DNA of 10,626 bases from a virus (lineage: Duplodnaviria > Heunggongvirae > Uroviricota > Caudoviricetes): the IMG/VR virus record IMGVR_UViG_3300023487_000117, positions 1-10,626 of that record; one strand, given 5' to 3'. The notes under the pieces were generated by a model. The model did not search any database and was not told the origin of the DNA. It worked only from the letters and a program-made list of their open reading frames with translations. Each line of letters opens with the position of its first letter. Position 1 is the first letter of the stretch. Below, piece by piece: positions 37 through 10,333 of this stretch. The position numbers were made by a program, and so were the translations under genes.

Positions 37-3000
37 TTACGTGGGTAGGATCAACTTCGCCTTAAAGTCGTCGTAACCGTTCTCCATGAAGTAGCCGGTA
101 CGCCCATCATTGCCGTTCGCGTTGTCCAGAATAACCATGATTTTTGGCTTAATACCAATGCTTGGACGGATTAGATCGTCTCCCAGCCCCATTTCGGCCG
201 CCATGCGCGTCATCAGTACATTTACTTCAGCAGAGCGCTTAGGGTTCATCTCGAACGGTCGAGAGGCTTTTACAGCGTCGATCACCAGATTGCCCATCAA
301 CTCTGCCTGGTCGCGCAGTCGTTCCGGATCTGTCGCTGGCAGACTGCCAGACTCAATCGATGCGAACGCACCTACTTTTTGCAGTGATTCGCGTACCCGG
401 CTGTTACATGCACGCTTCTCGACCGCTTCCTCAAATTGCTCAAGTGACTCGAATTTGCCGCCAACTTTCTCACGCGCTCTCATGATGGCCTGGCAATCAT
501 TCTCAGAGCAGCCTTTCACAGCAGAGAATGGTGCATACAGAACCTGACTGCCGTCTTCCAGCGTGCGGTTCTCAATTCGGTTAGATGACACGTTAACGTC
601 TGGTGGCAATACGCGAATGCCATAGGTCAGCGCATCCTTAACCAGCCCCTGGTGCTTATCCTCGCCCAGAATGGTGAGCGCAGCAGCGAAGAACTCAGCA
701 GGGTAATGTGTCTTTAACCACATAGACTGATAGCTGATTAAAGAATAAGCAACACTGTGTGATTTGTTGAAGGCATATCCACCGAACTTCTCAAAGGCGT
801 CCCATATTTCTTGGGCTTTTTCCTTACTGAGACCTTCTTGTTCAGAGACGATCTCCACGTAGTCTATGCCGTCACTAATAGCCTCGCTGTAGCTTCTACG
901 CTTACCGTCTGAGCAATCCAGTTTTGCGTGTTTGTGAACCTCTACAGTACCTCCATTTTTGAGTGACAGTGTCACCCAGCCTGCTTGTGCTCGTTCTACA
1001 AAATCGCTGCCGATCGCTTTCATCTTATCCATGTTCTTTTTACCGATAGCGGAACGCAGAGCGTCTGCTTCGGCCATAGAGAACCCGGCAAGTACTCGGG
1101 AACTTTGCATGATTTGTTCCTGATAGAGCAAAACACCATTAGTCTCCCGGGTGACTTCCTCAAGACGCGGATGAATTGAATGTGGAGCCATGAAGCCTTT
1201 GGCCACGGAGACATAGTCGTCCAACATGCCGGATTGGATCGGGCCAGGTCGGAAGAGTGCGGTCGTGGCGACAACGGTTTTGAAGCTCATTGGCTCAATG
1301 CCACCGCCCAGATCTTTAAGCAGCTTGCGCATGGGGCCGGACTCCAGCTGGAATACGCCCTGCGTGTACCCTGCAGCGAACCCATCCAGAACCTTACGAT
1401 CGTCCAGTGGAATAGCATCGAGATTGATGTCTTCCCCGGTACTCTCTTTGATGTAGCGTTTCGCGCTATCCAGCAGATCGAGCGTTGCCAGACCGAGAAC
1501 GTCCAGCTTAATCAGCCCCATTGCCTCGCAGTAACGTTTATCGAACGCAATACAGCGAGCGTTGCCACGCAGCTCGACGGGAGTGCGCTCTATCAATGGA
1601 ACGCCAGCGACGATCATCCCCGCAGCGTGACGACCAAAACCACGCATCAGGCTTTGCAGCTTACACGCCGCTTTGAACGCTTCCGGGTTTTTCGTGGCGT
1701 ATTTGTCCAGGCTGGCCAGTTGCTCGCGCAGCTCTTCCAGAGACAGGCTATCGTCTTCCAGATTCTTGAACTCTTTGGATACCGCCATATCCGCAGCGTC
1801 GACACCGTAAATACGCGCAGTGTCTCGCAGCGCAGAAGCGGCGCCCAGATAGGTGAAGTTTGGAATACCGGCAACGTAATCTTCGCCATAGCGTTCATTC
1901 AGATACTCGATCACCTCATGACGACGTGCCTGGCTGAAGTCCAGATCCGCATCCGGTAAGTCAAGACGTTCAGGGTTGATGAAACGCTCAAACAGAAGAC
2001 CGTGACGGATAGGATCGACGTTGGTTATGCCTATGCACCACGCTACCAGAGAACCCGCTGACGAACCACGCCCTGGCCCAACCGGTATTCCTGTTTCACG
2101 GCTGTGATTCATCAGATCGCGTACCATCAGGAAGTAGCCACAGAAGCCCAGACGGGTCAGTGTGTCCATTTCGTACTTCAGTCGCTCAACATACACTCGG
2201 TGCTCAGAAGCCGGTGGTGTGTAGCCAAACTCTTTAGTAGTTAGACGCTTGCGTAGCCCCGCGACAGCCAGCTTCATCAGCGTTGCAGGCTCGTCGTCTG
2301 CCATCTTGGGCAGTGCTGGTGGCAGTTCATGCCAGCGCCATGTGCAGGCTTCAATAATGGTGTCCTGCGTTGTTGAGGCCATTGCAGCTGTTACCGGTAC
2401 GCCCATGCGAACGGAGAAGGCTTTCAGCGCTTCAAGGAGATGGCGACGACCATTAACAGCGTTATCTCGCTGGTGGGGGATGCGCAGACGATGCGGCTGG
2501 TCGATTTTGATGTTGTTCGTAACCATGTGCGCAATGTCTTTAATGTCAGCGTCGTCGATCGCTTCGTAATAAGCGGGATAGAACGCCACTGGCTCTATTT
2601 TCAGTGCGCTCGCCACTTTCATCGCCCGGACGTTAATCTGGTCGTAGAATGGGGTAGGGTGCGGATAAACCACGCTGTAGAAGTTATCGCGACCGCCAGC
2701 TGTGACCAGCGTCCCGATAATTTTTGCGAAGTCCCGGCGCTGGAATACACTGCCAATGTCGGACGTCAGCAGGATGATGTTGCCTTTGGCATATGCGGCT
2801 GCCAGCTGCTCAAGCGCCAGACGCGGGACAAAGTAGAATTGCTCGCGCTTGTTCGCTAAGGTCATCAGTTCGCACACGTCGCGATAACCTTGTTCATTCT
2901 TTATCAGTGCCGTGAAGCAGTAGCTGCTATCACGAACTAATGATTCCATACATCTTCCTGACTCTTTCGCCAAGCGAGCGCGGTGCTCGTATGTCGGATC

Positions 3001-3204
3001 GTCGACCACATTCAGCTTAACACCACAAATAACCGCCATGTCGTCGCCAGCGGCACGCTGCAGGGGGATCACACTGGCAATGTTCATGCTGTCAGCGGAA
3101 ATGACAGCGGTGTAGCCAGCGTCTCTCGCGATTTTCACCGCGTTTTCTGCTTTTAGAGCTGACTCTCCCAGGGAGAAGTCAGTTCTGACCATCAGAGCCT
3201 TCAT
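37..3204 (-). CDS. DnaE-family DNA polymerase (Pol III alpha-like), 1055 aa, stand-alone
   Basis: Long uninterrupted ORF. Pol III alpha hallmark block GYFLMVRDLMNHSRETGIPVGPGRGSSAGSLVAWCIGITNVDPIRHGLLFERFINPERLDLPDADLDF, matching the E. coli DnaE region around the catalytic PDFDVDF as recalled. Third acidic residue context KLDVLGL and GRHAAGMIVAG also present. N-terminal PHP-like region lacks the HxH dyad. Start ATG at 3202-3204 preceded by AAAGG. Confidence 0.85.
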   Translation of the reverse strand: MKALMVRTDFSLGESALKAENAVKIARDAGYTAVISADSMNIASVIPLQRAAGDDMAVICGVKLNVVDDPTYEHRARLAKESGRCMESLVRDSSYCFTALIKNEQGYRDVCELMTLANKREQFYFVPRLALEQLAAAYAKGNIILLTSDIGSVFQRRDFAKIIGTLVTAGGRDNFYSVVYPHPTPFYDQINVRAMKVASALKIEPVAFYPAYYEAIDDADIKDIAHMVTNNIKIDQPHRLRIPHQRDNAVNGRRHLLEALKAFSVRMGVPVTAAMASTTQDTIIEACTWRWHELPPALPKMADDEPATLMKLAVAGLRKRLTTKEFGYTPPASEHRVYVERLKYEMDTLTRLGFCGYFLMVRDLMNHSRETGIPVGPGRGSSAGSLVAWCIGITNVDPIRHGLLFERFINPERLDLPDADLDFSQARRHEVIEYLNERYGEDYVAGIPNFTYLGAASALRDTARIYGVDAADMAVSKEFKNLEDDSLSLEELREQLASLDKYATKNPEAFKAACKLQSLMRGFGRHAAGMIVAGVPLIERTPVELRGNARCIAFDKRYCEAMGLIKLDVLGLATLDLLDSAKRYIKESTGEDINLDAIPLDDRKVLDGFAAGYTQGVFQLESGPMRKLLKDLGGGIEPMSFKTVVATTALFRPGPIQSGMLDDYVSVAKGFMAPHSIHPRLEEVTRETNGVLLYQEQIMQSSRVLAGFSMAEADALRSAIGKKNMDKMKAIGSDFVERAQAGWVTLSLKNGGTVEVHKHAKLDCSDGKRRSYSEAISDGIDYVEIVSEQEGLSKEKAQEIWDAFEKFGGYAFNKSHSVAYSLISYQSMWLKTHYPAEFFAAALTILGEDKHQGLVKDALTYGIRVLPPDVNVSSNRIENRTLEDGSQVLYAPFSAVKGCSENDCQAIMRAREKVGGKFESLEQFEEAVEKRACNSRVRESLQKVGAFASIESGSLPATDPERLRDQAELMGNLVIDAVKASRPFEMNPKRSAEVNVLMTRMAAEMGLGDDLIRPSIGIKPKIMVILDNANGNDGRTGYFMENGYDDFKAKLILPT

Positions 3205-3384: not shown

Positions 3385-4620
3385 TTAACCAAAGATCTTC
3401 TGAACCACTTCACGCGCTGCCTGTGCAGACGTGGATGGAAGTTTATTGATAAACGACTTTTCGATGCCGGCAGAGAAATCACCGCGCATCATTCCGATTT
3501 TGGCGGACAGCAGCAGCTCACGAGGCCCGATTGGCTGGCTAATCTGATGCTTTTCATAACCTTCACGGATAAGATTCGCGAACTTCACCATCTTCTCGGC
3601 GTATTCGCGGATGACGCCTGCTTCAGCCAGCATGTTGACTTCTGCCTTCGTACTCATGTACTTCACGTTTGAAACAATGCCAAAACGCGAGAAGTTCGCT
3701 GCGTTCTGGATGTTTGTGCCTTGATAGAGACCTGTTTCGTCGCCAGAGCCGTTAGTGTTGCCAGTGCCAATGAAGGCAAAGCGTTTATGCGGGGTGATGC
3801 GGCGCCAGTCCGCAGTTGCCTCTTTGATGATCAGCGGCTCTCCTTCAAGAACTGGCTGATACACACCCAGAATCTGCGGGAACGCGAAGTCATATTCATC
3901 AGCGAGGTAAACCCAACCATTTTTCATCGCCAGCGCTAGTAAACCCGGTTCGAAATAGGTGGAACCATCGCGAGCGAGGATCTGGCCTGTAACGTGCGCT
4001 TCCTCCATAGACGCCGTATGCTGGGCGCGGATCAGTGGTCGATTTAGCAGGGCACATAGCTGCGTAGGAAGAGAAGATTTACCGGTTCCTGCATGGCCCC
4101 AGAGATAACCCGGGATTCCGATTTCCAGCATCATAAAGATGTCCTTGATCAGGTCGAAGTCGCCATACACATAGTTTTTCTTCGCTTCAGGTACGAACTC
4201 CGGATAGGGCGTGTTGACGTTGACTGTCACCTGTAGTGGTTTTCCGCGTGGTGTACCCAGCTCTTTGATCGTTACGCCAAGCAGCTCGTGCGCGGCCACC
4301 AGTTCGGTCTTGTATTCGACCGTTCCTGCGTAGCCCGGATGTGCGCTAATCTCCGCTACTTTTCCTTCGCCTGAATGCTTTTCGGCACGCTTCTCATTGA
4401 GTTTGGCCAGTGCCGTGCGAGAGATCGTTGGTTCATCTGGAAACGCAGAGGTGTACATCTTCACCACTTCGTCCACGTCCAGACCCTTCGCAGACTCAGG
4501 AATATTCTCGCAACGGCCCATAGAGATATGGGATTTCAGGTAATGAAAGGATTTGCCACACCACTTGCAGACGATGGCTTCCGGCAAATGTTCTTCTTGC
4601 TGTAGTGCAGTAGCGGTCAT
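3385..4620 (-). CDS. CobS-like AAA+ ATPase (MoxR family), 411 aa
   Basis: Walker A GHAGTGKS (aa 175-182), Walker B-like VYLADEYD, overall CobS/MoxR-like layout. N-terminal C-x2-C-x4-H-x4-H-x5-C motif. Strong RBS AAGGAAAAAAC before ATG at 4618-4620. Confidence 0.8.
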   Translation of the reverse strand: MTATALQQEEHLPEAIVCKWCGKSFHYLKSHISMGRCENIPESAKGLDVDEVVKMYTSAFPDEPTISRTALAKLNEKRAEKHSGEGKVAEISAHPGYAGTVEYKTELVAAHELLGVTIKELGTPRGKPLQVTVNVNTPYPEFVPEAKKNYVYGDFDLIKDIFMMLEIGIPGYLWGHAGTGKSSLPTQLCALLNRPLIRAQHTASMEEAHVTGQILARDGSTYFEPGLLALAMKNGWVYLADEYDFAFPQILGVYQPVLEGEPLIIKEATADWRRITPHKRFAFIGTGNTNGSGDETGLYQGTNIQNAANFSRFGIVSNVKYMSTKAEVNMLAEAGVIREYAEKMVKFANLIREGYEKHQISQPIGPRELLLSAKIGMMRGDFSAGIEKSFINKLPSTSAQAAREVVQKIFG

Positions 4621-4715: not shown

Positions 4716-7019
4716 TTACCTAAGAATGATACGAGATAACTCAGTGACGACTGACGGCCCTAGCTCTTCAACACTGTTAACCAGTGCGTAATTTTTGTAG
4801 TAACGCCGTGGTTCGTCGGTCAGAATGCCGATAGCCATCAGTTCGATGTCGCTCAAGGTCTCAATTTCTTTGGTGACGGTTCGTAAATGCTGATGGAATC
4901 CACTACCTGTAGCACATGGCTCCCCATCACTCATAACCAGCATGATCTTTTTGTCCTCCATTCGCCCTGCAAACAGGGTAGCCAGTTGCGCGACACTCTC
5001 ACCATCGACGTTATTGAGCAGTGGGAACGTCTCACATACGCATCCCATGCGAGCACGGATCTCTGGAGAGTTTGCTTTCTCATTCCAGTTTTTGATAATG
5101 GGCAGCATGAGCGCCTCGAAGCGTGTAAACCCGCGCTTCGACCTGGTTTCATAATCTGGGCTACCGAACGTGGTAAAGCCGGTGATGATGTTGGGGACAT
5201 TGATACGATCTAAAGCATCCGCAATGGTATAGGCACTGGCTAGGGCCAGTTGAATCTTCACGCCATCCATTGAGCCGGACAAGTCGATGACCTGCTGGAC
5301 ACACGCGTTCACCGCTCTATGGTCTTCCTTCTTGCGGAACACTCGGTCGTCGTTCATTGCCAGACGATACAGGCTCGCGCCATGTATCCGCCCACGCCTC
5401 TGACCAGGTATAAACTGAACTCGGTTGCGGCTGGCGATGGCCCGCTCCAGGTCTTTGGCCAGCGTCGAAGAAACGCCTGCAGACAGATGTTTTTCGATTT
5501 TCAGTTCAAAGAGTTTTCTGCCTTCTGGCACCATACGGTAGCGGTCGACTGGTGAGTGCATTGGTATTGCACCGAACGTCTTTCTGGTGCGCTTCACATG
5601 CTCTTCGGCTCCATCAATCAACCCGATAAAGTCGTATGATCGATCGTATGGCCGATAATCAGAAGGTGAGACGCTCATAAGCTCTTTGCTGATGGTGGCC
5701 GACAGTGCGTCTTCGGTCATTTCACCGATTCCGTCTTCCATCTCGTCGAGCGCCTTTAGTGCCTCCTCCAGAGTCATTTCATCCGGCGCAGGAACAAAGC
5801 CAGACTCACTGTCTTTGGGCACTTCCGCACCATCTTTATTTTCTTTGCCTTCGACGTCTTCTTCTTCAGTTTCCCCACGATCAGTATCGGAGTCCTCACC
5901 GCCATCACCATCAGAATCATCGGTATCTTCGCGAATACCATCGCCAGGTCTTGGGGCGCCAGTGCCATTGCTGCCGTCATCATCGGTGTCAGAGTCACTT
6001 GATTTTATGCCGATAGCATCGGATTCTGGGGTGTCTCCTGACTCTTCGTGGCCTGCTTCTGTATATTTACTTTCTGTATCACTAATATCTTTAACGTGTG
6101 TAGGTAAGTCCTTATCTAATGAATCAGACAAATCGGAACCCCCAGAATCTTCCTCTTCTGATGCATCATCTTCTCGTTCTTCCTTGTCATCGCCTTCGCC
6201 TTTGGCAGGCTTAGATGCAGAGTCACCATGAGACGGTTCGTCACCTGATTCTGGCGTTTCCTCGGACTCGTCTTTGCTCTTCGACGGCTTTCTGGCAGAT
6301 GATTTAAGTTCTGGTAATTTGCCCTCTGGCTTGTCTTTCATATCCTGCATGATTTGGGCTATAGCAGCAGCGACCTTCACGCAATCCTCAGTGTTCGACA
6401 TATTGCGAACGGCCACGTCTATACCATGCTCCTTTAGTAAGGCTACCGGCCTCTCGATAAGGCGCCAGTGTTCTTCCATAAAATCGATGAAGGGGCTTTG
6501 TCCATCCCAGGCGCGGACGACCGGGCAAAGAAAGAATTTCAAAAACAATTCACGCTGGTCTCCGTGACAGGCTAAAACCGCTTCTGGTACTTTATTCCTG
6601 AAGTATTTGTCGATAACCAGACTCTGTGTTGCAAGTAAATTACGCCGGGTTCCGTTAAAGACCTGCCCCATTCTGCGTTCAATAAAAACGTCTTCCAGCG
6701 CATTCCAAAGCCCCGTAGACGGAGCCTTTCCTCTTTCGCGCATCTGCATTGCGACTTTCGGTTCAGTAAAGAGAATATGGGCCACCTCATGGTCGAGAAA
6801 ACCACGCACTGCGTTCATGAGGGTTGGCGACGCGTCGTCCGGTATAGATGGGATGTTTACCAGCACTGGTTCGCCGCGCCGGTTATAGCGGACATATGCT
6901 TCATTGCCTCGTTCTGCAACAGGTATCTGTTTACCTGAAAGCATCGCTACAACTCGTTTTACACAGTCGCGAAAATCTTGCACCTCTTTCAGTACAGCTT
7001 TGGTGGTTTTTTTGGACAT
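4716..7019 (-). CDS. CobT-like protein: N-terminal domain with HExxH motif, ~210-aa acidic D/E/S/G-rich linker, C-terminal vWA domain with MIDAS
   Basis: vWA MIDAS DLSGS (codons 5271-5285) and downstream MSDGEP. Acidic low-complexity centre encoded at about 5709-6338. Preferred start is ATG at 7017-7019 (MSKKTTKAV) with a perfect RBS AAGGAAATTCTA; the ORF-track start at 7088 lies inside a palindrome and has no RBS. Confidence 0.8.
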   Translation of the reverse strand: MSKKTTKAVLKEVQDFRDCVKRVVAMLSGKQIPVAERGNEAYVRYNRRGEPVLVNIPSIPDDASPTLMNAVRGFLDHEVAHILFTEPKVAMQMRERGKAPSTGLWNALEDVFIERRMGQVFNGTRRNLLATQSLVIDKYFRNKVPEAVLACHGDQRELFLKFFLCPVVRAWDGQSPFIDFMEEHWRLIERPVALLKEHGIDVAVRNMSNTEDCVKVAAAIAQIMQDMKDKPEGKLPELKSSARKPSKSKDESEETPESGDEPSHGDSASKPAKGEGDDKEEREDDASEEEDSGGSDLSDSLDKDLPTHVKDISDTESKYTEAGHEESGDTPESDAIGIKSSDSDTDDDGSNGTGAPRPGDGIREDTDDSDGDGGEDSDTDRGETEEEDVEGKENKDGAEVPKDSESGFVPAPDEMTLEEALKALDEMEDGIGEMTEDALSATISKELMSVSPSDYRPYDRSYDFIGLIDGAEEHVKRTRKTFGAIPMHSPVDRYRMVPEGRKLFELKIEKHLSAGVSSTLAKDLERAIASRNRVQFIPGQRRGRIHGASLYRLAMNDDRVFRKKEDHRAVNACVQQVIDLSGSMDGVKIQLALASAYTIADALDRINVPNIITGFTTFGSPDYETRSKRGFTRFEALMLPIIKNWNEKANSPEIRARMGCVCETFPLLNNVDGESVAQLATLFAGRMEDKKIMLVMSDGEPCATGSGFHQHLRTVTKEIETLSDIELMAIGILTDEPRRYYKNYALVNSVEELGPSVVTELSRIILR

Positions 7020-7072
7020 TAGAATTTCCTTGTTGTTAAAACAATTTGTTTTCTGATGTGCGTAATTTATCA

Positions 7073-7105
7073 CTGTACGAACAGGCATCTAATCTGTTCG
7101 TACAG
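7073..7105. promoter_or_regulatory. Perfect 12-bp inverted repeat pair (CTGTACGAACAG / CTGTTCGTACAG) with 9-bp spacer, upstream of the cobT-like start
   Basis: Arms at 7073-7084 and 7094-7105 are exact reverse complements. Located 54-86 bp upstream of the preferred start and 28 bp downstream of the 70-aa ORF stop. No U-tract follows on the minus strand. Confidence 0.4.
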
Positions 7106-7132
7106 GCGCTAGAGAGGATGGGAGGGGTGGTG

Positions 7133-7345
7133 TTAACTTGTGCGGACGGCTACTGAACCGCAGCCGGTATTGATGAGAGTGAAGCACTTGCCCTTTAGCT
7201 CAAAGATGTATGCGGTTGCGTCTTTCATGTCAAGTAACAAAGACTTTGTTGGCAGTTCAGTGAGTATGGCTGCTGCCCCATCATCGTCAATTGAAACCGT
7301 ATGTCCGACCTCAAGGGCGATCAAATTAGAAGTTATTTTTTTCAT
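7133..7345 (-). CDS. Hypothetical small protein (70 aa), possible first gene of the minus-strand operon
   Basis: ORF MKKITSNLIALEVGHTVSIDDDGAAAILTELPTKSLLLDMKDATAYIFELKGKCFTLINTGCGSVAVRTS with ATG start at 7343-7345, same strand as the operon, weak RBS. No recognisable family. Confidence 0.35.
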   Translation of the reverse strand: MKKITSNLIALEVGHTVSIDDDGAAAILTELPTKSLLLDMKDATAYIFELKGKCFTLINTGCGSVAVRTS

Positions 7346-7555: not shown

Positions 7556-7601
7556 CAGTAAGCACTTACCAAATAAAATCAAAACACGCAGGTTGATAAT
7601 T

Positions 7602-7991
7602 ATGGCTACCAACGAAACAACAGAAGCTAAAGTAGGTCGCTACGCTGCTTACATTGACGCTTTAATCGCGATTTCTCCGAAAAGCCAGGCGACCATCGCG
7701 AAAGAAGCAGGCTATAAAAACCCTAACAATCTTTCACTTATCAAGAGCGGCAAAATCCCGCTTCCGATCGACAAGGTCAGAGCGTTGGCTAAAGCATTGG
7801 ATGCCGATTCGGTCCGATTGATGCTAATGGTGCTGGAAGAGCGTCATCCAGAGCTGTTAGCGTTTTTTCGCGACGAAGGCACAGCCCCTCTGACTAAAGA
7901 TGAAAAACTAGTTCTGGAAGCCTTCCGTCGACGTTTCGGTGACCAACGTGGTGCGTCGGAGCGGGTTGTTGAGGCAATCAAGTCGCTATGA
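7602..7991 (+). CDS. XRE/Cro-CI-type helix-turn-helix transcriptional regulator (129 aa)
   Basis: HTH signature SQATIAKEAGYKNPNNLSLIKSGK. ATG at 7602 with AGG 9 nt upstream; the ORF-track start 7593 is an upstream TTG. Stop overlaps the integrase stop. Confidence 0.7.
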   Translation: MATNETTEAKVGRYAAYIDALIAISPKSQATIAKEAGYKNPNNLSLIKSGKIPLPIDKVRALAKALDADSVRLMLMVLEERHPELLAFFRDEGTAPLTKDEKLVLEAFRRRFGDQRGASERVVEAIKSL

Positions 7992-9089
7992 GAAATTTAC
8001 ACGGATTAGCTCAGTAGCGAGTCGATCTCCCTTGAACTTATGATCTATCTCCTCTAAATCCTGTTTCTCTACGATTGATGCGATGTACGCCGAAAAACTG
8101 TTTAAGGCGTCTCGCATCTCGTCTATATAATCGTGTCGATCGTATACTCGATCTATCCCCTCAAGACTGTGGTTCATAATTTTGCGGGATACCTCCTGAC
8201 TTATGCCTAACGCGGGGAAGTAACTACGCGCAGTACGACGCAAATCTCGGGGGGTAAATGGCTCAAGCTCCATCAACTCTGGACGTTCTAAAATCCTTCT
8301 CAACGCCTGTGATATGGCCACCTTAGACATTGGCACATCCTCACCCTGTTTCTTGTTTGAAGGAACAAGCCACTGGCTGCCTTTTCCGTATTTGATCAGC
8401 TCCTCAACACATTTGCGCATTAGCGGGCTTAATGGTAACGAGTGCTGGCGAGCCGATTTATTCCTCGTTCCTTGATTCCATAAATTATATTCGAGGTTGA
8501 ATTCTGATCTTTTAGCCCGGAGCACTTCATCTGGTCGTCTGGCCGCTACAAGGCATAATCTGGCCGCCCACTTTGTACCCTCACATACGTTGAAGTAGTC
8601 CCATACATTCCAAAAGACCCAGACCTCTGCGTCGGTCAGTTTGCGCTCACGCGGCGTGGGCTTCGCGCCACCGGCTACTCTGTTAAGCGACATATCGTTC
8701 AATGGGGATGTATCAATTAAGCCCTGAAATGCACACCAACTGAGAAACTGCTTCATCAGCGAGAACACACGTCTGCCCTGGACGATCTTGCCCTCAAGTA
8801 TTAATGGGTTCACCAGCTGGTTGACTAAAACCCTACTAATGTCACTTACTTTTACTTCACAGATATGCGGCATTACATGTATCAAAATACAATGAACAGC
8901 TATTTCAGGTCGACGTCTCGTTATCAGCAAAGATAAGCGAGTGAATAACATGAATGCGGAAGAAAACGACATGTCACCGTCGAAATTGGTGGTCGACACT
9001 GCTGACAAACCGGAAGCGCGTTCGAGATACTCGATGGCTTCTCTAGAGGTGTTTTCTGCTGCGCGTGCTTTATCAAAAGTGTTTTTCAT
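7986..9089 (-). CDS. int: Tyrosine site-specific recombinase / integrase (up to 367 aa)
   Basis: Catalytic signature box I LVAARRPDEV and C-terminal TPRDLRRTARSYFPALGIS...IMNHSLEGIDRVYDRHDY (R, H-x-x-R, Y). N-terminal ~90 aa do not resemble a P4-type arm-binding domain, so the true start may be internal. Confidence 0.85.
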   Translation of the reverse strand: MKNTFDKARAAENTSREAIEYLERASGLSAVSTTNFDGDMSFSSAFMLFTRLSLLITRRRPEIAVHCILIHVMPHICEVKVSDISRVLVNQLVNPLILEGKIVQGRRVFSLMKQFLSWCAFQGLIDTSPLNDMSLNRVAGGAKPTPRERKLTDAEVWVFWNVWDYFNVCEGTKWAARLCLVAARRPDEVLRAKRSEFNLEYNLWNQGTRNKSARQHSLPLSPLMRKCVEELIKYGKGSQWLVPSNKKQGEDVPMSKVAISQALRRILERPELMELEPFTPRDLRRTARSYFPALGISQEVSRKIMNHSLEGIDRVYDRHDYIDEMRDALNSFSAYIASIVEKQDLEEIDHKFKGDRLATELIRVNFS

Positions 9090-9117: not shown

Positions 9118-9137
9118 TACTGTATTTATAAACAGTA
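9118..9137. promoter_or_regulatory. LexA (SOS) box, near consensus
   Basis: TACTGTATTTATAAACAGTA matches the E. coli consensus TACTG(TA)5CAGTA at 18/20 positions, with CTGT-N8-ACAG intact. It sits 29-48 bp upstream of the integrase ATG. Confidence 0.6.
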
Positions 9138-9187: not shown

Positions 9188-9222
9188 AAATGATTCCATA
9201 CCTTACAAGTATGGAATCATTT
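9188..9222. terminator. Bidirectional intrinsic-terminator-like hairpin
   Basis: Perfect 11-bp stem TGATTCCATAC (9191-9201) / GTATGGAATCA (9209-9219), 7-nt loop CTTACAA, flanked by AAAA on the 5' side and TTTAT on the 3' side (U-tract in both orientations). Confidence 0.45.
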
Positions 9223-9979: not shown

Positions 9980-10333
9980 ATGCCAGAAATTGCATCCCTA
10001 CAACTTTTCAAAATACTATCTGATGAAACCCGCCTGGGTATCGTGCTACTGCTCAGGGAGATGGGGGAGCTGTGCGTATGCGATCTCTGCACAGCGCTGG
10101 AACAATCACAACCCAAGACCTCCCGCCATCTGGCGATGCTTCGGGAAAGTGGCCTGTTGCTGGATCGCAAGCAGGGGAAATGGGTTCATTATCGCTTATC
10201 CCCGCATATTCCTTCCTGGGCTGCCCTGGTGATTGAGCAGGCCTGGTTAAGTCAACAGGACGACGTACAGGCCATCGCCCGTAAGCTGGCATCCGCCAAC
10301 TGCTCTGGCAGCGGTAAGGCTGTTTGTATCTAA
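9980..10333 (+). CDS. arsR: ArsR arsenical-resistance operon repressor (117 aa)
   Basis: Near-identical by eye to R773-type ArsR: LQLFKILSDETRLGIVLLLREMGELCVCDLCTALEQSQPKTSRHLAMLRESGLLLDRKQGKWVHYRL, metal-binding ELCVCDLC and C-terminal CSGSGKAVCI. Confidence 0.95.
   Translation: MPEIASLQLFKILSDETRLGIVLLLREMGELCVCDLCTALEQSQPKTSRHLAMLRESGLLLDRKQGKWVHYRLSPHIPSWAALVIEQAWLSQQDDVQAIARKLASANCSGSGKAVCI

What the first reader, a model, noticed from the sequence alone, without database searches (positions are those of the whole stretch)
7073..7105. Perfect 12-bp inverted repeats immediately upstream of the operon's main gene
CTGTACGAACAG-N9-CTGTTCGTACAG lies between the 70-aa ORF and the cobT-like RBS. 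The CTGT/ACAG ends resemble LexA half-sites but the spacing is not canonical. With no U-tract it looks more like an operator, possibly for the adjacent HTH regulator, or a 5'-UTR RNA hairpin than an intrinsic terminator.
Basis: seen in the sequence. Interest (0 to 1): 0.45.

Follow-up and report, generated by a model that had tools for sequence, protein, structure and literature searches.

The report
Conserved hairpin separating two phage-plasmid operons
The perfect 12-bp inverted repeat is real and conserved across SSU5/pHCM2/pMT1-type phage-plasmids, and it most likely encodes an RNA stem-loop that ends the upstream small-gene transcript just where the promoter of the replication operon begins: an ordinary but previously undescribed regulatory element.

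Summary
In detail: CTGTACGAACAG-N9-CTGTTCGTACAG at 7073-7105 is perfect and non-random. The window is an SSU5/pHCM2/pMT1-like phage-plasmid, and the genes flanking the repeat are on the minus strand. The repeat lies 28 nt after the stop of a 70-aa ORF and 54 nt before the true cobT-like ATG (7019).

Across about 40 distinct relatives the two arms are nearly invariant while the loop and 5' flank are saturated. Pairing survives through four compensatory pair changes. Five one-sided changes are all G·U on the sense strand. Published RNA-seq of the relative Cyrano shows a roughly 30-fold drop between the two genes. The Klebsiella clade adds a U-rich tail.

The repeat is nested in a promoter of a family repeated about 17 times in the genome: the loop holds the -35, the 3' arm the spacer, the tail an extended -10. 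A dispersed palindrome, AAACAAnTTGTTT, follows.

Best reading (about 0.5): a transcribed stem-loop that terminates or insulates the upstream transcript. Main rival (about 0.25): a DNA operator at this promoter. The adjacent HTH is an unlikely reader of the arms, and LexA is excluded. A canonical LexA box sits at 9120-9135 instead.

This is a new member of a known kind, of modest interest.

The parts
7133..7345 (-). 70-aa ORF (phrog_2627, unknown function), the gene whose transcript the hairpin follows
   Evidence: It is conserved next to the hairpin in all relatives except the SSU5 deletion variant.
7106..7132 (-). C-rich, G-poor spacer between the stop codon and the stem (16 C and 2 G in 27 nt). 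The sequence is not conserved but the composition is.
   Evidence: the C/G ratio is 4.7 over 10 lineages. This composition is rut-like; that reading is an inference.
7094..7105 (-). 5' arm of the stem-loop on the sense (minus) strand, read as CUGUACGAACAG. It lies upstream of the predicted -35.
   Evidence: 3 of 12 columns vary within the main clade, and all three changes give G·U pairs.
7085..7093 (-). 9-nt loop (sense AUUAGAUGC). It contains the predicted -35 hexamer TTAGAT (7087-7092).
   Evidence: 9 of 9 columns vary, but TT is mostly kept; alignment with paralogous promoters (TTTGAC-GCC...).
7073..7084 (-). 3' arm (sense CUGUUCGUACAG). It corresponds to the -35/-10 spacer of the predicted cobT-operon promoter.
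   Evidence: 0 of 12 columns vary in the main clade; it aligns with GCCTTATTCGTACAACGATAAT of a paralogous promoter.
7064..7072 (-). Predicted extended -10 (sense TGaTAAATT), immediately 3' of the stem. In the Klebsiella clade the same place is a U-rich tail.
   Evidence: This is a consensus inference; no TSS data exist.
7038..7052 (.). 15-bp palindrome AAAACAAATTGTTTT, one copy of a motif found at about 17 mostly intergenic sites in a related 106-kb genome. It is a candidate operator of a global regulator.
   Evidence: It is conserved even in Cronobacter JZ38 and Klebsiella.
7025..7031 (-). Shine-Dalgarno sequence AAGGAAA of the cobT-like gene
   Evidence: conserved.
4716..7019 (-). cobT-like VWA protein, first gene of the cobT-like / AAA(MoxR/CobS-like) / DnaE-like operon

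Best explanation
The repeat encodes an RNA stem-loop (12 bp, 9-nt loop, about -18 kcal/mol) on the minus strand, at the 3' end of the transcript that carries the 70-aa ORF. It stops or marks the end of that transcript. The mechanism could be weak intrinsic termination, hairpin-assisted Rho-dependent termination, or 3'-end protection.

This keeps the immunity/recombination module transcriptionally separate from the cobT-like/AAA/DnaE-like replication operon. That operon has its own promoter, nested in the 3' half of the hairpin: the -35 is in the loop, the 3' arm is the spacer, and an extended -10 sits in the tail. A dispersed palindromic operator follows about 10 nt downstream.

Shown: the repeat, its conservation, the pairing-preserving substitutions, and the RNA-level step-down in a relative. 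Inferred: the termination mechanism, the promoter assignment, and the origin of the upstream transcript.
For: 1. The repeat is non-random and lies 28 nt after a stop codon on the coding strand.
2. It is conserved in Escherichia, Salmonella (pHCM2), Yersinia pestis (pMT1), Enterobacter, Citrobacter, Kluyvera, Buttiauxella, Cronobacter and Klebsiella elements.
3. Within the main clade the arms vary at 3 of 24 columns. The loop varies at 9 of 9 and the 5' flank at 20 of 20.
4. Pairing is kept in 98.6% of cells, against 25-49% for slid registers. Two pairs changed on both sides (U-A to C-G, A-U to G-C) in the p09EL50/Cyrano clade.
5. Two more pairs run C-G to U·G to U-A and A-U to G·U to G-C through p09EL50 to Cronobacter JZ38, whose different sequence still folds into an 11-bp hairpin at the same place.
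6. Five one-sided changes are all G·U on the sense strand and would be A·C mismatches on the other strand. The only two disruptive changes sit at the two loop-proximal pairs.
7. In Cyrano RNA-seq, log2(FPKM+5) is 10.8 for the 70-aa gene and 5.9, 5.1 and 4.5 for cobT, cobS and dnaE in macrophages at 6 h. The drop is seen in all five conditions (PMC9928086 S1 Table).
8. The Klebsiella clade has the tail UGUUAUUUU(C/U)UUAUAU after the same stem.
9. No other terminator-like site exists in the intergenic region or upstream as far as the int promoter. The hairpin is among the most stable local folds on that strand.
10. Other promoters of the same family in the relative are directly preceded by ordinary terminators, so a terminator-promoter module is the local style.
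Against: - There is no U-tract in this lineage (3 U in the first 8 nt), and the 9-nt loop exceeds the usual 3-8 nt, so canonical intrinsic termination is unlikely to be efficient here.
- The arms are conserved at the sequence level far more than a purely structural stem needs.
- The repeat brackets a predicted -35, which is classical operator geometry.
- The wobble bias is only suggestive: about p=0.06 for 5 of 7 events by my estimate, and weaker if only transitions are counted.
- Compensatory changes would also be expected for a symmetric operator co-evolving with its protein.
- The RNA-seq comes from a relative about 66% identical in this region, gives per-gene counts of unstated strandedness, and cannot distinguish termination from differential stability or roadblock.
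- A 49%-identity Klebsiella clade lacks the hairpin.
Confidence: 0.5

Rival explanations
1. DNA operator. A dimeric (or dimer-of-dimers) regulator binds the two 12-bp arms, whose centres are 21 bp apart (two helical turns) on either side of the -35. It represses or activates the cobT-operon promoter. Bound protein could also act as a roadblock to read-through.
For: - The arms bracket the predicted -35 and occupy the spacer.
- The arms are conserved at the sequence level as strongly as the dispersed palindrome, while the loop is free to vary.
- Both arms changed symmetrically in the p09EL50 clade, as expected if a cognate protein changed specificity.
- cobT is silent in the plasmid state.
Against: - The arm motif is unique in the window and in a 106-kb relative, so there is no regulon and no copy at any regulator's own promoter.
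- The adjacent HTH keeps an identical recognition helix in clades with different arms.
- In p09EL50, Klebsiella and JZ38 the two arms are no longer reverse complements as DNA but still pair as RNA.
- The single-arm changes favour G·U on one strand.
Confidence: 0.25
2. Single-stranded DNA hairpin or cruciform used in replication or recombination, for example a priming or origin signal next to the replication genes, or a lox/dif-like core site for the nearby tyrosine recombinase.
For: - G·T tolerance would also fit a DNA hairpin on that strand.
- The 12-9-12 layout resembles recombinase core sites, and the spacer varies between lineages as lox-type spacers may.
- The integrase gene is 0.9 kb away.
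- One metagenomic contig has a 21-nt duplication of arm plus loop.
Against: - A 9-bp spacer is outside the usual 6-8 bp.
- A better candidate site lies directly upstream of int: a 14-bp IR with a 7-bp spacer at 9188-9222, whose arms are conserved in Cyrano with a different spacer.
- The SSU5 deletion that removed orf70, the HTH gene and int does not end at the repeat.
- SSU5 keeps the repeat although it lacks the integrase.
- Nothing else origin-like, such as iterons or an AT-rich unwinding stretch, was seen nearby.
Confidence: 0.06
3. LexA (SOS) operator controlling the DnaE-like polymerase operon.
For: The arms have CTGT...ACAG ends. The related element Cyrano is induced 39-fold by ciprofloxacin.
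Against: - The spacing is N4 or N25, never the defining N8.
- A perfect canonical box, CTGTATTTATAAACAG, exists elsewhere, at 9120-9135 upstream of int. It is conserved in Cyrano and pGS04EC-1.
- In the p09EL50 clade the outer ends stay but the inner CTGT/ACAG are lost.
Confidence: 0.01

Closest known systems
Rho-independent (intrinsic) terminators and terminator-promoter junctions of phage early regions
   Same: A stable stem-loop on the coding strand shortly after a stop codon. Transcript abundance steps down across it in a relative. In the Klebsiella clade a U-rich tail follows it. A promoter follows directly, as at other junctions in the same genome.
   Different: This lineage has no U-tract and the loop is 9 nt. 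The stem sequence is unusually conserved. The promoter is not merely adjacent but nested: the -35 is in the loop and the spacer in the 3' arm.
Rho-dependent terminators with a C-rich/G-poor rut region and a downstream pause hairpin (e.g. lambda tR1 after cro)
   Same: It sits directly after the first small gene of an immunity-region transcript and before the replication genes. A C-rich, G-poor untranslated tract precedes the hairpin in every lineage.
   Different: The C-rich tract is only 14-42 nt long. No boxA/boxB-like nut elements were recognised. Rho dependence is untested.
Phage repressor operators overlapping -35 (lambdoid OR/OL; P1 C1 operators dispersed over a phage-plasmid)
   Same: Dyad symmetry around a promoter element, in a phage-plasmid whose lytic genes are silent in the carrier state. 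The dispersed AAACAAnTTGTTT palindrome next to it resembles the multi-site P1 C1 regulon in layout.
   Different: The 12-bp arm sequence is single-copy. The arms lose DNA-level symmetry in several clades. The neighbouring HTH does not co-vary with it.
E. coli LexA box (CTGT-N8-ACAG)
   Same: CTGT and ACAG tetranucleotides at the arm ends.
   Different: Wrong spacing. The genuine box of this element lies upstream of the integrase gene.

Membership tests
E. coli-type LexA/SOS box | 16-bp palindrome CTGT-N8-ACAG with an AT-rich centre | tested here: not met
   the spacing within an arm is N4 and across the arms N25. The only perfect box in the window is at 9120-9135.
Intrinsic (Rho-independent) terminator | Stable G+C-containing stem on the transcribed strand downstream of a stop codon | tested here: met
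   a 12-bp stem with 6 G-C pairs lies 28 nt after the stop. The 55-nt fold is -19.2 kcal/mol with z = -4.7.
Intrinsic (Rho-independent) terminator | Short loop (3-8 nt) and a run of U (at least 5 in 8) directly after the stem | tested here: not met
   the loop is 9 nt, the tail is UGAUAAAU, and the scan found no site. The feature is met only in the Klebsiella clade (UGUUAUUUUCUU).
Intrinsic (Rho-independent) terminator | Transcripts end at the site | tested here: inconclusive
   Cyrano per-gene RNA-seq shows a roughly 30-fold drop from the 70-aa gene to cobT. There is no 3'-end mapping, strandedness is not stated, and the data come from a relative, not this element.
Structured RNA element (pairing under selection) | Base pairs kept through compensatory and wobble substitutions on one strand | tested here: met
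   98.6% of cells are paired. There are 2 double changes, 2 more via G·U intermediates in JZ38, and 5 G·U one-sided changes. Statistical support for the strand bias is modest.
Operator of the adjacent XRE-type HTH regulator | Site sequence tracks the regulator's recognition helix and recurs at its own or other regulated promoters | tested here: not met
   the recognition helix is invariant while the arms differ between clades; there is no second copy with up to 2 mismatches in intergenic DNA of the window or of a 106-kb relative.
Operator of the adjacent XRE-type HTH regulator | Direct binding by the protein | not testable with these tools
   This needs EMSA or footprinting.
Tyrosine-recombinase core site (lox/FRT/dif-like) | 11-14 bp inverted arms around a 6-8 bp crossover spacer, used by a cognate recombinase | tested here: inconclusive
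   the arms fit but the spacer is 9 bp. SSU5 keeps the site without an integrase. A 14-7-14 repeat directly upstream of int is the better candidate.
Any Rfam family | Match to a curated covariance model | tested here: not met
   nothing overlaps 7073-7105 even at E up to 10.

The most novel reading that the evidence does not exclude
The hairpin may be the stop signal of an SOS-triggered transcript that forms the induction switch of SSU5-type phage-plasmids.

On this reading, a LexA-controlled promoter (box at 9120-9135) drives int on the minus strand. Because int and the repressor gene converge and overlap, the transcript runs antisense through the repressor gene (7593-7991) and on into the 70-aa ORF. 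The hairpin then ends it exactly at the -35 of the replication-operon promoter. The site would therefore couple or insulate SOS-driven antisense silencing of the repressor and firing of the replication genes.

The data fit this. In Cyrano, int, repressor-locus and orf70 reads co-vary across five conditions and then drop about 30-fold at cobT. No terminator was found between the int promoter and the hairpin.
Probability: 0.15. Interest if true: 0.55.

Novelty: new member of a known kind. Interest (0 to 1): 0.3.

Why it matters
SSU5-type phage-plasmids include Y. pestis pMT1, S. Typhi pHCM2 and many resistance-carrying plasmids of E. coli, Klebsiella and Enterobacter. I found nothing in the searchable literature on how they control the switch from plasmid maintenance to lytic replication.

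This site marks the boundary between the immunity/recombination module and the replication operon. Together with the promoter family, the dispersed palindrome and the LexA box upstream of int, it gives a concrete, testable map of that control region. As an element type (a transcript-end hairpin or an operator) it is ordinary.

Tried and rejected
- **LexA operator:** rejected on spacing. A canonical box lies elsewhere.
- **Regulon motif:** rejected. The arm sequence is single-copy in the window and in the 106-kb pGS04EC-1.
- **Two independent palindromic 12-mers or 21-bp direct repeats (iteron-like):** each arm is a near-palindrome in the main clade, and the arms are 86% identical as direct repeats. 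In the p09EL50, Klebsiella and JZ38 clades direct similarity and self-symmetry are lost and only arm-to-arm complementarity survives.
- **Rfam:** no family matches.
- **Structure of the 70-aa protein:** the AlphaFold2 model on 5 sequences had pLDDT 53 and was unusable, so no fold search was run. Pfam gave nothing and PHROGs gave 'unknown function'.
- **HTH protein:** no hit against PDB sequences.
- **Genome-contig scan with the 70-aa alignment:** only 4 loci.
- **Metagenome scan:** only already-known stem variants plus one duplication.
- **Literature:** searches for SSU5 operators or promoters and for the motif strings found nothing relevant.
- **Acinetobacter relative:** the small ORF upstream of its cobT homologue is not detectably homologous to orf70, so its hairpin is only an analogy.

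Full report
**What the window is.** The 10.6-kb window matches 33 E. coli plasmids at 95-100% identity. It also has relatives among about 490 plasmids of Escherichia, Enterobacter, Yersinia (pMT1), Salmonella (pHCM2), Citrobacter, Cronobacter and Klebsiella, and in phages SSU5 and Cyrano. It is therefore an SSU5-type phage-plasmid.

The genes around the finding are as follows:

| Gene | Coordinates | Strand |
|---|---|---|
| Tyrosine integrase | 9089..7986 | minus |
| 132-aa XRE-type HTH ('putative repressor' in Cyrano) | 7593..7991 | plus |
| 70-aa ORF of unknown function (phrog_2627) | 7345..7133 | minus |
| cobT-like VWA protein | 7019..4716 | minus |
| CobS/MoxR-like AAA ATPase | 4620..3385 | minus |
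| DnaE-like polymerase | 3204..37 | minus |

The HTH gene converges on the integrase gene and overlaps it. The mechanical ORF list starts the cobT-like ORF at ATG 7088, inside the repeat's loop. The real start is ATG 7019, which has an AAGGAAA ribosome-binding site and is the start used by PGAP.

**Checking the observation.** The repeat is exactly as described: 7073-7084 CTGTACGAACAG and 7094-7105 CTGTTCGTACAG, 12 of 12 complementary, 9 nt apart. In 300 Markov simulations of the window, a perfect repeat of this size occurred in 1.7%. On the coding (minus) strand it lies 28 nt after the stop of the 70-aa ORF and 54 nt before the cobT-like ATG. Its tail is UGAUAAAUUACGC, so there is no U-tract, and the terminator scan reports nothing there.

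**Conservation.** I collected the intergenic region from annotated plasmids and phages, from IMG/VR and genome contigs found through the 70-aa protein, and from DNA-pattern scans. This gave about 40 distinct versions.

Variation among the 16 main-clade versions:

| Region | Variable columns |
|---|---|
| 20 nt 5' of the stem | 20 of 20 |
| Loop | 9 of 9 |
| 5' arm | 3 of 12 |
| 3' arm | 0 of 12 |

The repeat is therefore under strong purifying selection. SSU5 itself has lost the 70-aa ORF, the HTH gene and the integrase by deletion but keeps the repeat. The deletion endpoint lies inside the end of the 70-aa ORF, not at the repeat.

**Is it pairing that is conserved?** On an 18-sequence alignment the helix forms in 98.6% of cells, against 25-49% for registers slid by 1-3 columns.

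- In the p09EL50/Cyrano clade, two pairs changed on both sides (U-A to C-G and A-U to G-C), and two further pairs became U·G and G·U.
- In Cronobacter JZ38 and Enterobacter CP102, those same two positions are U-A and G-C. The series main clade, then p09EL50, then JZ38 reads as two compensatory replacements passing through wobble intermediates. JZ38 folds into an 11-bp hairpin with one bulge at the same place although the sequence differs.
- As direct repeats, or as two self-symmetric 12-mers, the arms lose their similarity in these clades. Only arm-to-arm complementarity survives.

There are seven one-sided changes. Five give G·U on the sense strand and would be A·C on the other strand:
- Cronobacter sakazakii clade, A9 to G;
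- E. ludwigii, C1 to U;
- Kluyvera L019/L085, A5 to G;
- p09EL50 clade, C10 to U and A11 to G.

The two that break a pair are at the two loop-proximal positions: a Klebsiella U·U, and a single contig with A·C. By my estimate this bias has a chance probability of about 0.06. It is suggestive, not decisive. Compensatory change alone cannot separate an RNA stem from a symmetric protein site.

**Promoter context.** Searching a complete relative (pGS04EC-1, 106 kb) showed that the arm sequence is single-copy. The palindrome that lies 20 nt downstream of the repeat, AAAACAAATTGTTTT (7038-7052), is different. It is one of about 17 copies of AAACAAnTTGTTT, nearly all intergenic and 10-25 nt upstream of a ribosome-binding site.

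About ten of these sites share a longer pattern: TTTGAC/TTTTAC, then GCC, then 13 nt, then GATAAT, then 13 nt, then the palindrome. That is a promoter family. The cobT-upstream region aligns with it, down to TTCGTACA in the spacer of one paralogue. The alignment places elements as follows:
- the -35 (TTAGAT) in the loop of the repeat;
- the 3' arm in the spacer;
- an extended -10 (TGaTAAATT; TGnTAnnTT across relatives) directly after the stem.

No other member of the family has a hairpin over its -35. Several are directly preceded by ordinary terminators. These assignments rest on consensus and paralogy. I found no TSS data.

**Expression evidence from a relative.** Cyrano is the SSU5-like phage-plasmid of E. 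coli LF82. It carries the p09EL50-type hairpin. The supplementary table of PMC9928086 gives log2(FPKM+5) for five conditions:

| Gene | LB | B1 | B6 | MB1 | MB6 |
|---|---|---|---|---|---|
| 70-aa gene (CYRAN_46) | 4.3 | 7.0 | 6.0 | 8.7 | 10.8 |
| cobT (CYRAN_47) | 2.9 | 3.3 | 4.0 | 5.2 | 5.9 |

cobS and dnaE are lower still. The drop across the 98-nt intergenic region reaches about 30-fold. Something there ends or destabilises the transcript, and the hairpin is the only strong structure present. Caveats: these are per-gene counts, strandedness is not stated, and the element is about 66% identical to the window in this region.

In the Klebsiella clade the same stem is followed by UGUUAUUUU(C/U)UUAUAU, a conventional U-rich tail. 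In every lineage the untranslated stretch between the stop codon and the stem is C-rich and G-poor (C/G 4.7). That composition would suit Rho loading.

**Who might bind it as DNA?** The HTH regulator is 82-87% identical within the main clade and 65% identical in p09EL50. Its predicted recognition helix region (YKNANNLSLIKSGK) is identical in both, although the arms differ at 4-6 positions. That helix conservation parallels the dispersed palindrome, which is kept in all clades, rather than the repeat. No arm-like sequence lies in the regulator's own promoter region. The 70-aa protein could not be characterised.

**LexA.** The arms do not form CTGT-N8-ACAG. A perfect box, CTGTATTTATAAACAG, lies at 9120-9135, 31 nt upstream of the integrase start. 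It is conserved in Cyrano (CTGTTTACTTATACAG) and in pGS04EC-1, which has a second box upstream of an S24-peptidase gene. Cyrano is induced 39-fold by ciprofloxacin.

The integrase, the antisense of the repressor gene, the 70-aa ORF and the hairpin are co-linear on the minus strand, and no terminator was found between them. In Cyrano the three loci co-vary across conditions. A single SOS-inducible transcript ending at the hairpin is therefore possible. This is the most novel reading I cannot exclude, and it is inference only.

**Verdict.** The repeat is real, conserved and functional.
- The best-supported mechanism (about 0.5) is a transcribed stem-loop that ends or insulates the upstream transcript at the doorstep of the replication-operon promoter, with which it physically overlaps.
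- A DNA operator read by an unidentified protein is the main rival (about 0.25). A dual role is conceivable.
- Recombination-site or ssDNA roles are unlikely.
- LexA is excluded.

The element is a new, undescribed instance of a familiar kind of regulatory signal. Its value lies mainly in helping to map the unstudied control region of a medically relevant phage-plasmid family.

Noticed in passing
window 9120-9135: A perfect canonical LexA box, CTGTATTTATAAACAG, lies 31 nt upstream of the integrase start codon. It is conserved in Cyrano and pGS04EC-1. This implies SOS control of int and possibly of a longer int / anti-repressor / orf70 transcript.
   Followed up: partly
window 9188-9222: A perfect 14-bp inverted repeat with a 7-nt spacer (AAATGATTCCATAC-N7-GTATGGAATCATTT) lies just upstream of the int promoter. 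Its arms are conserved in Cyrano with a different spacer, a lox/dif-like layout. It is a candidate site for the integrase or an operator.
   Followed up: partly
window 7038-7052; pGS04EC-1 (L014-L016) at about 17 sites, e.g. 31976, 34905, 74527, 76660, 79603, 84383, 85105: The palindrome AAACAAnTTGTTT is dispersed over the phage-plasmid, nearly always between a conserved -10 (GATAAT) and the RBS of early-type genes. Some promoters carry a second copy about 51 bp upstream. It looks like the operator set of a global repressor, similar in layout to P1 C1. I found no description of it in the searchable literature.
   Followed up: partly
window 7986-7991: The integrase and HTH-repressor genes converge and overlap by 6 nt, leaving no room for a terminator. 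Transcription of either gene must run antisense into the other.
   Followed up: no
L010 (phage SSU5, JQ965645.1 41633-43880): SSU5 lacks the 70-aa ORF, the HTH repressor and the integrase. A deletion joins the last few codons of the 70-aa ORF to the tRNA-Asn region. This fits SSU5 being a repressor-less derivative of a phage-plasmid.
   Followed up: partly
L090 (Cyrano) 1269-1823 = CYRAN_43: A hypothetical gene divergent from int is expressed about 720-fold above the prophage background in LB (PMC9928086 S1 Table). Its function is unknown.
   Followed up: no
L081 (metagenome contig OGTI01000033.1): One contig carries a 21-nt tandem duplication of 5' arm plus loop (arm1-loop-arm1-loop-arm2).
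   Followed up: no
L065 (K. pneumoniae NZ_CP032196.1), 40 nt before the cobT-like ATG: A distant clade (49% aa identity) has no hairpin upstream of the promoter. Instead it has a perfect 14-bp palindrome, ATACCCATAAATAA-N7-TTATTTATGGGTAT, abutting the start codon in place of the AAACAAnTTGTTT motif.
   Followed up: no
window 9980-10333: An ArsR-family regulator gene lies at the right end of the window. The closest plasmid (pHNAH968) has different content there (a hypothetical gene and tRNA-Asn), so this end of the window appears to be a variable cargo junction.
   Followed up: no
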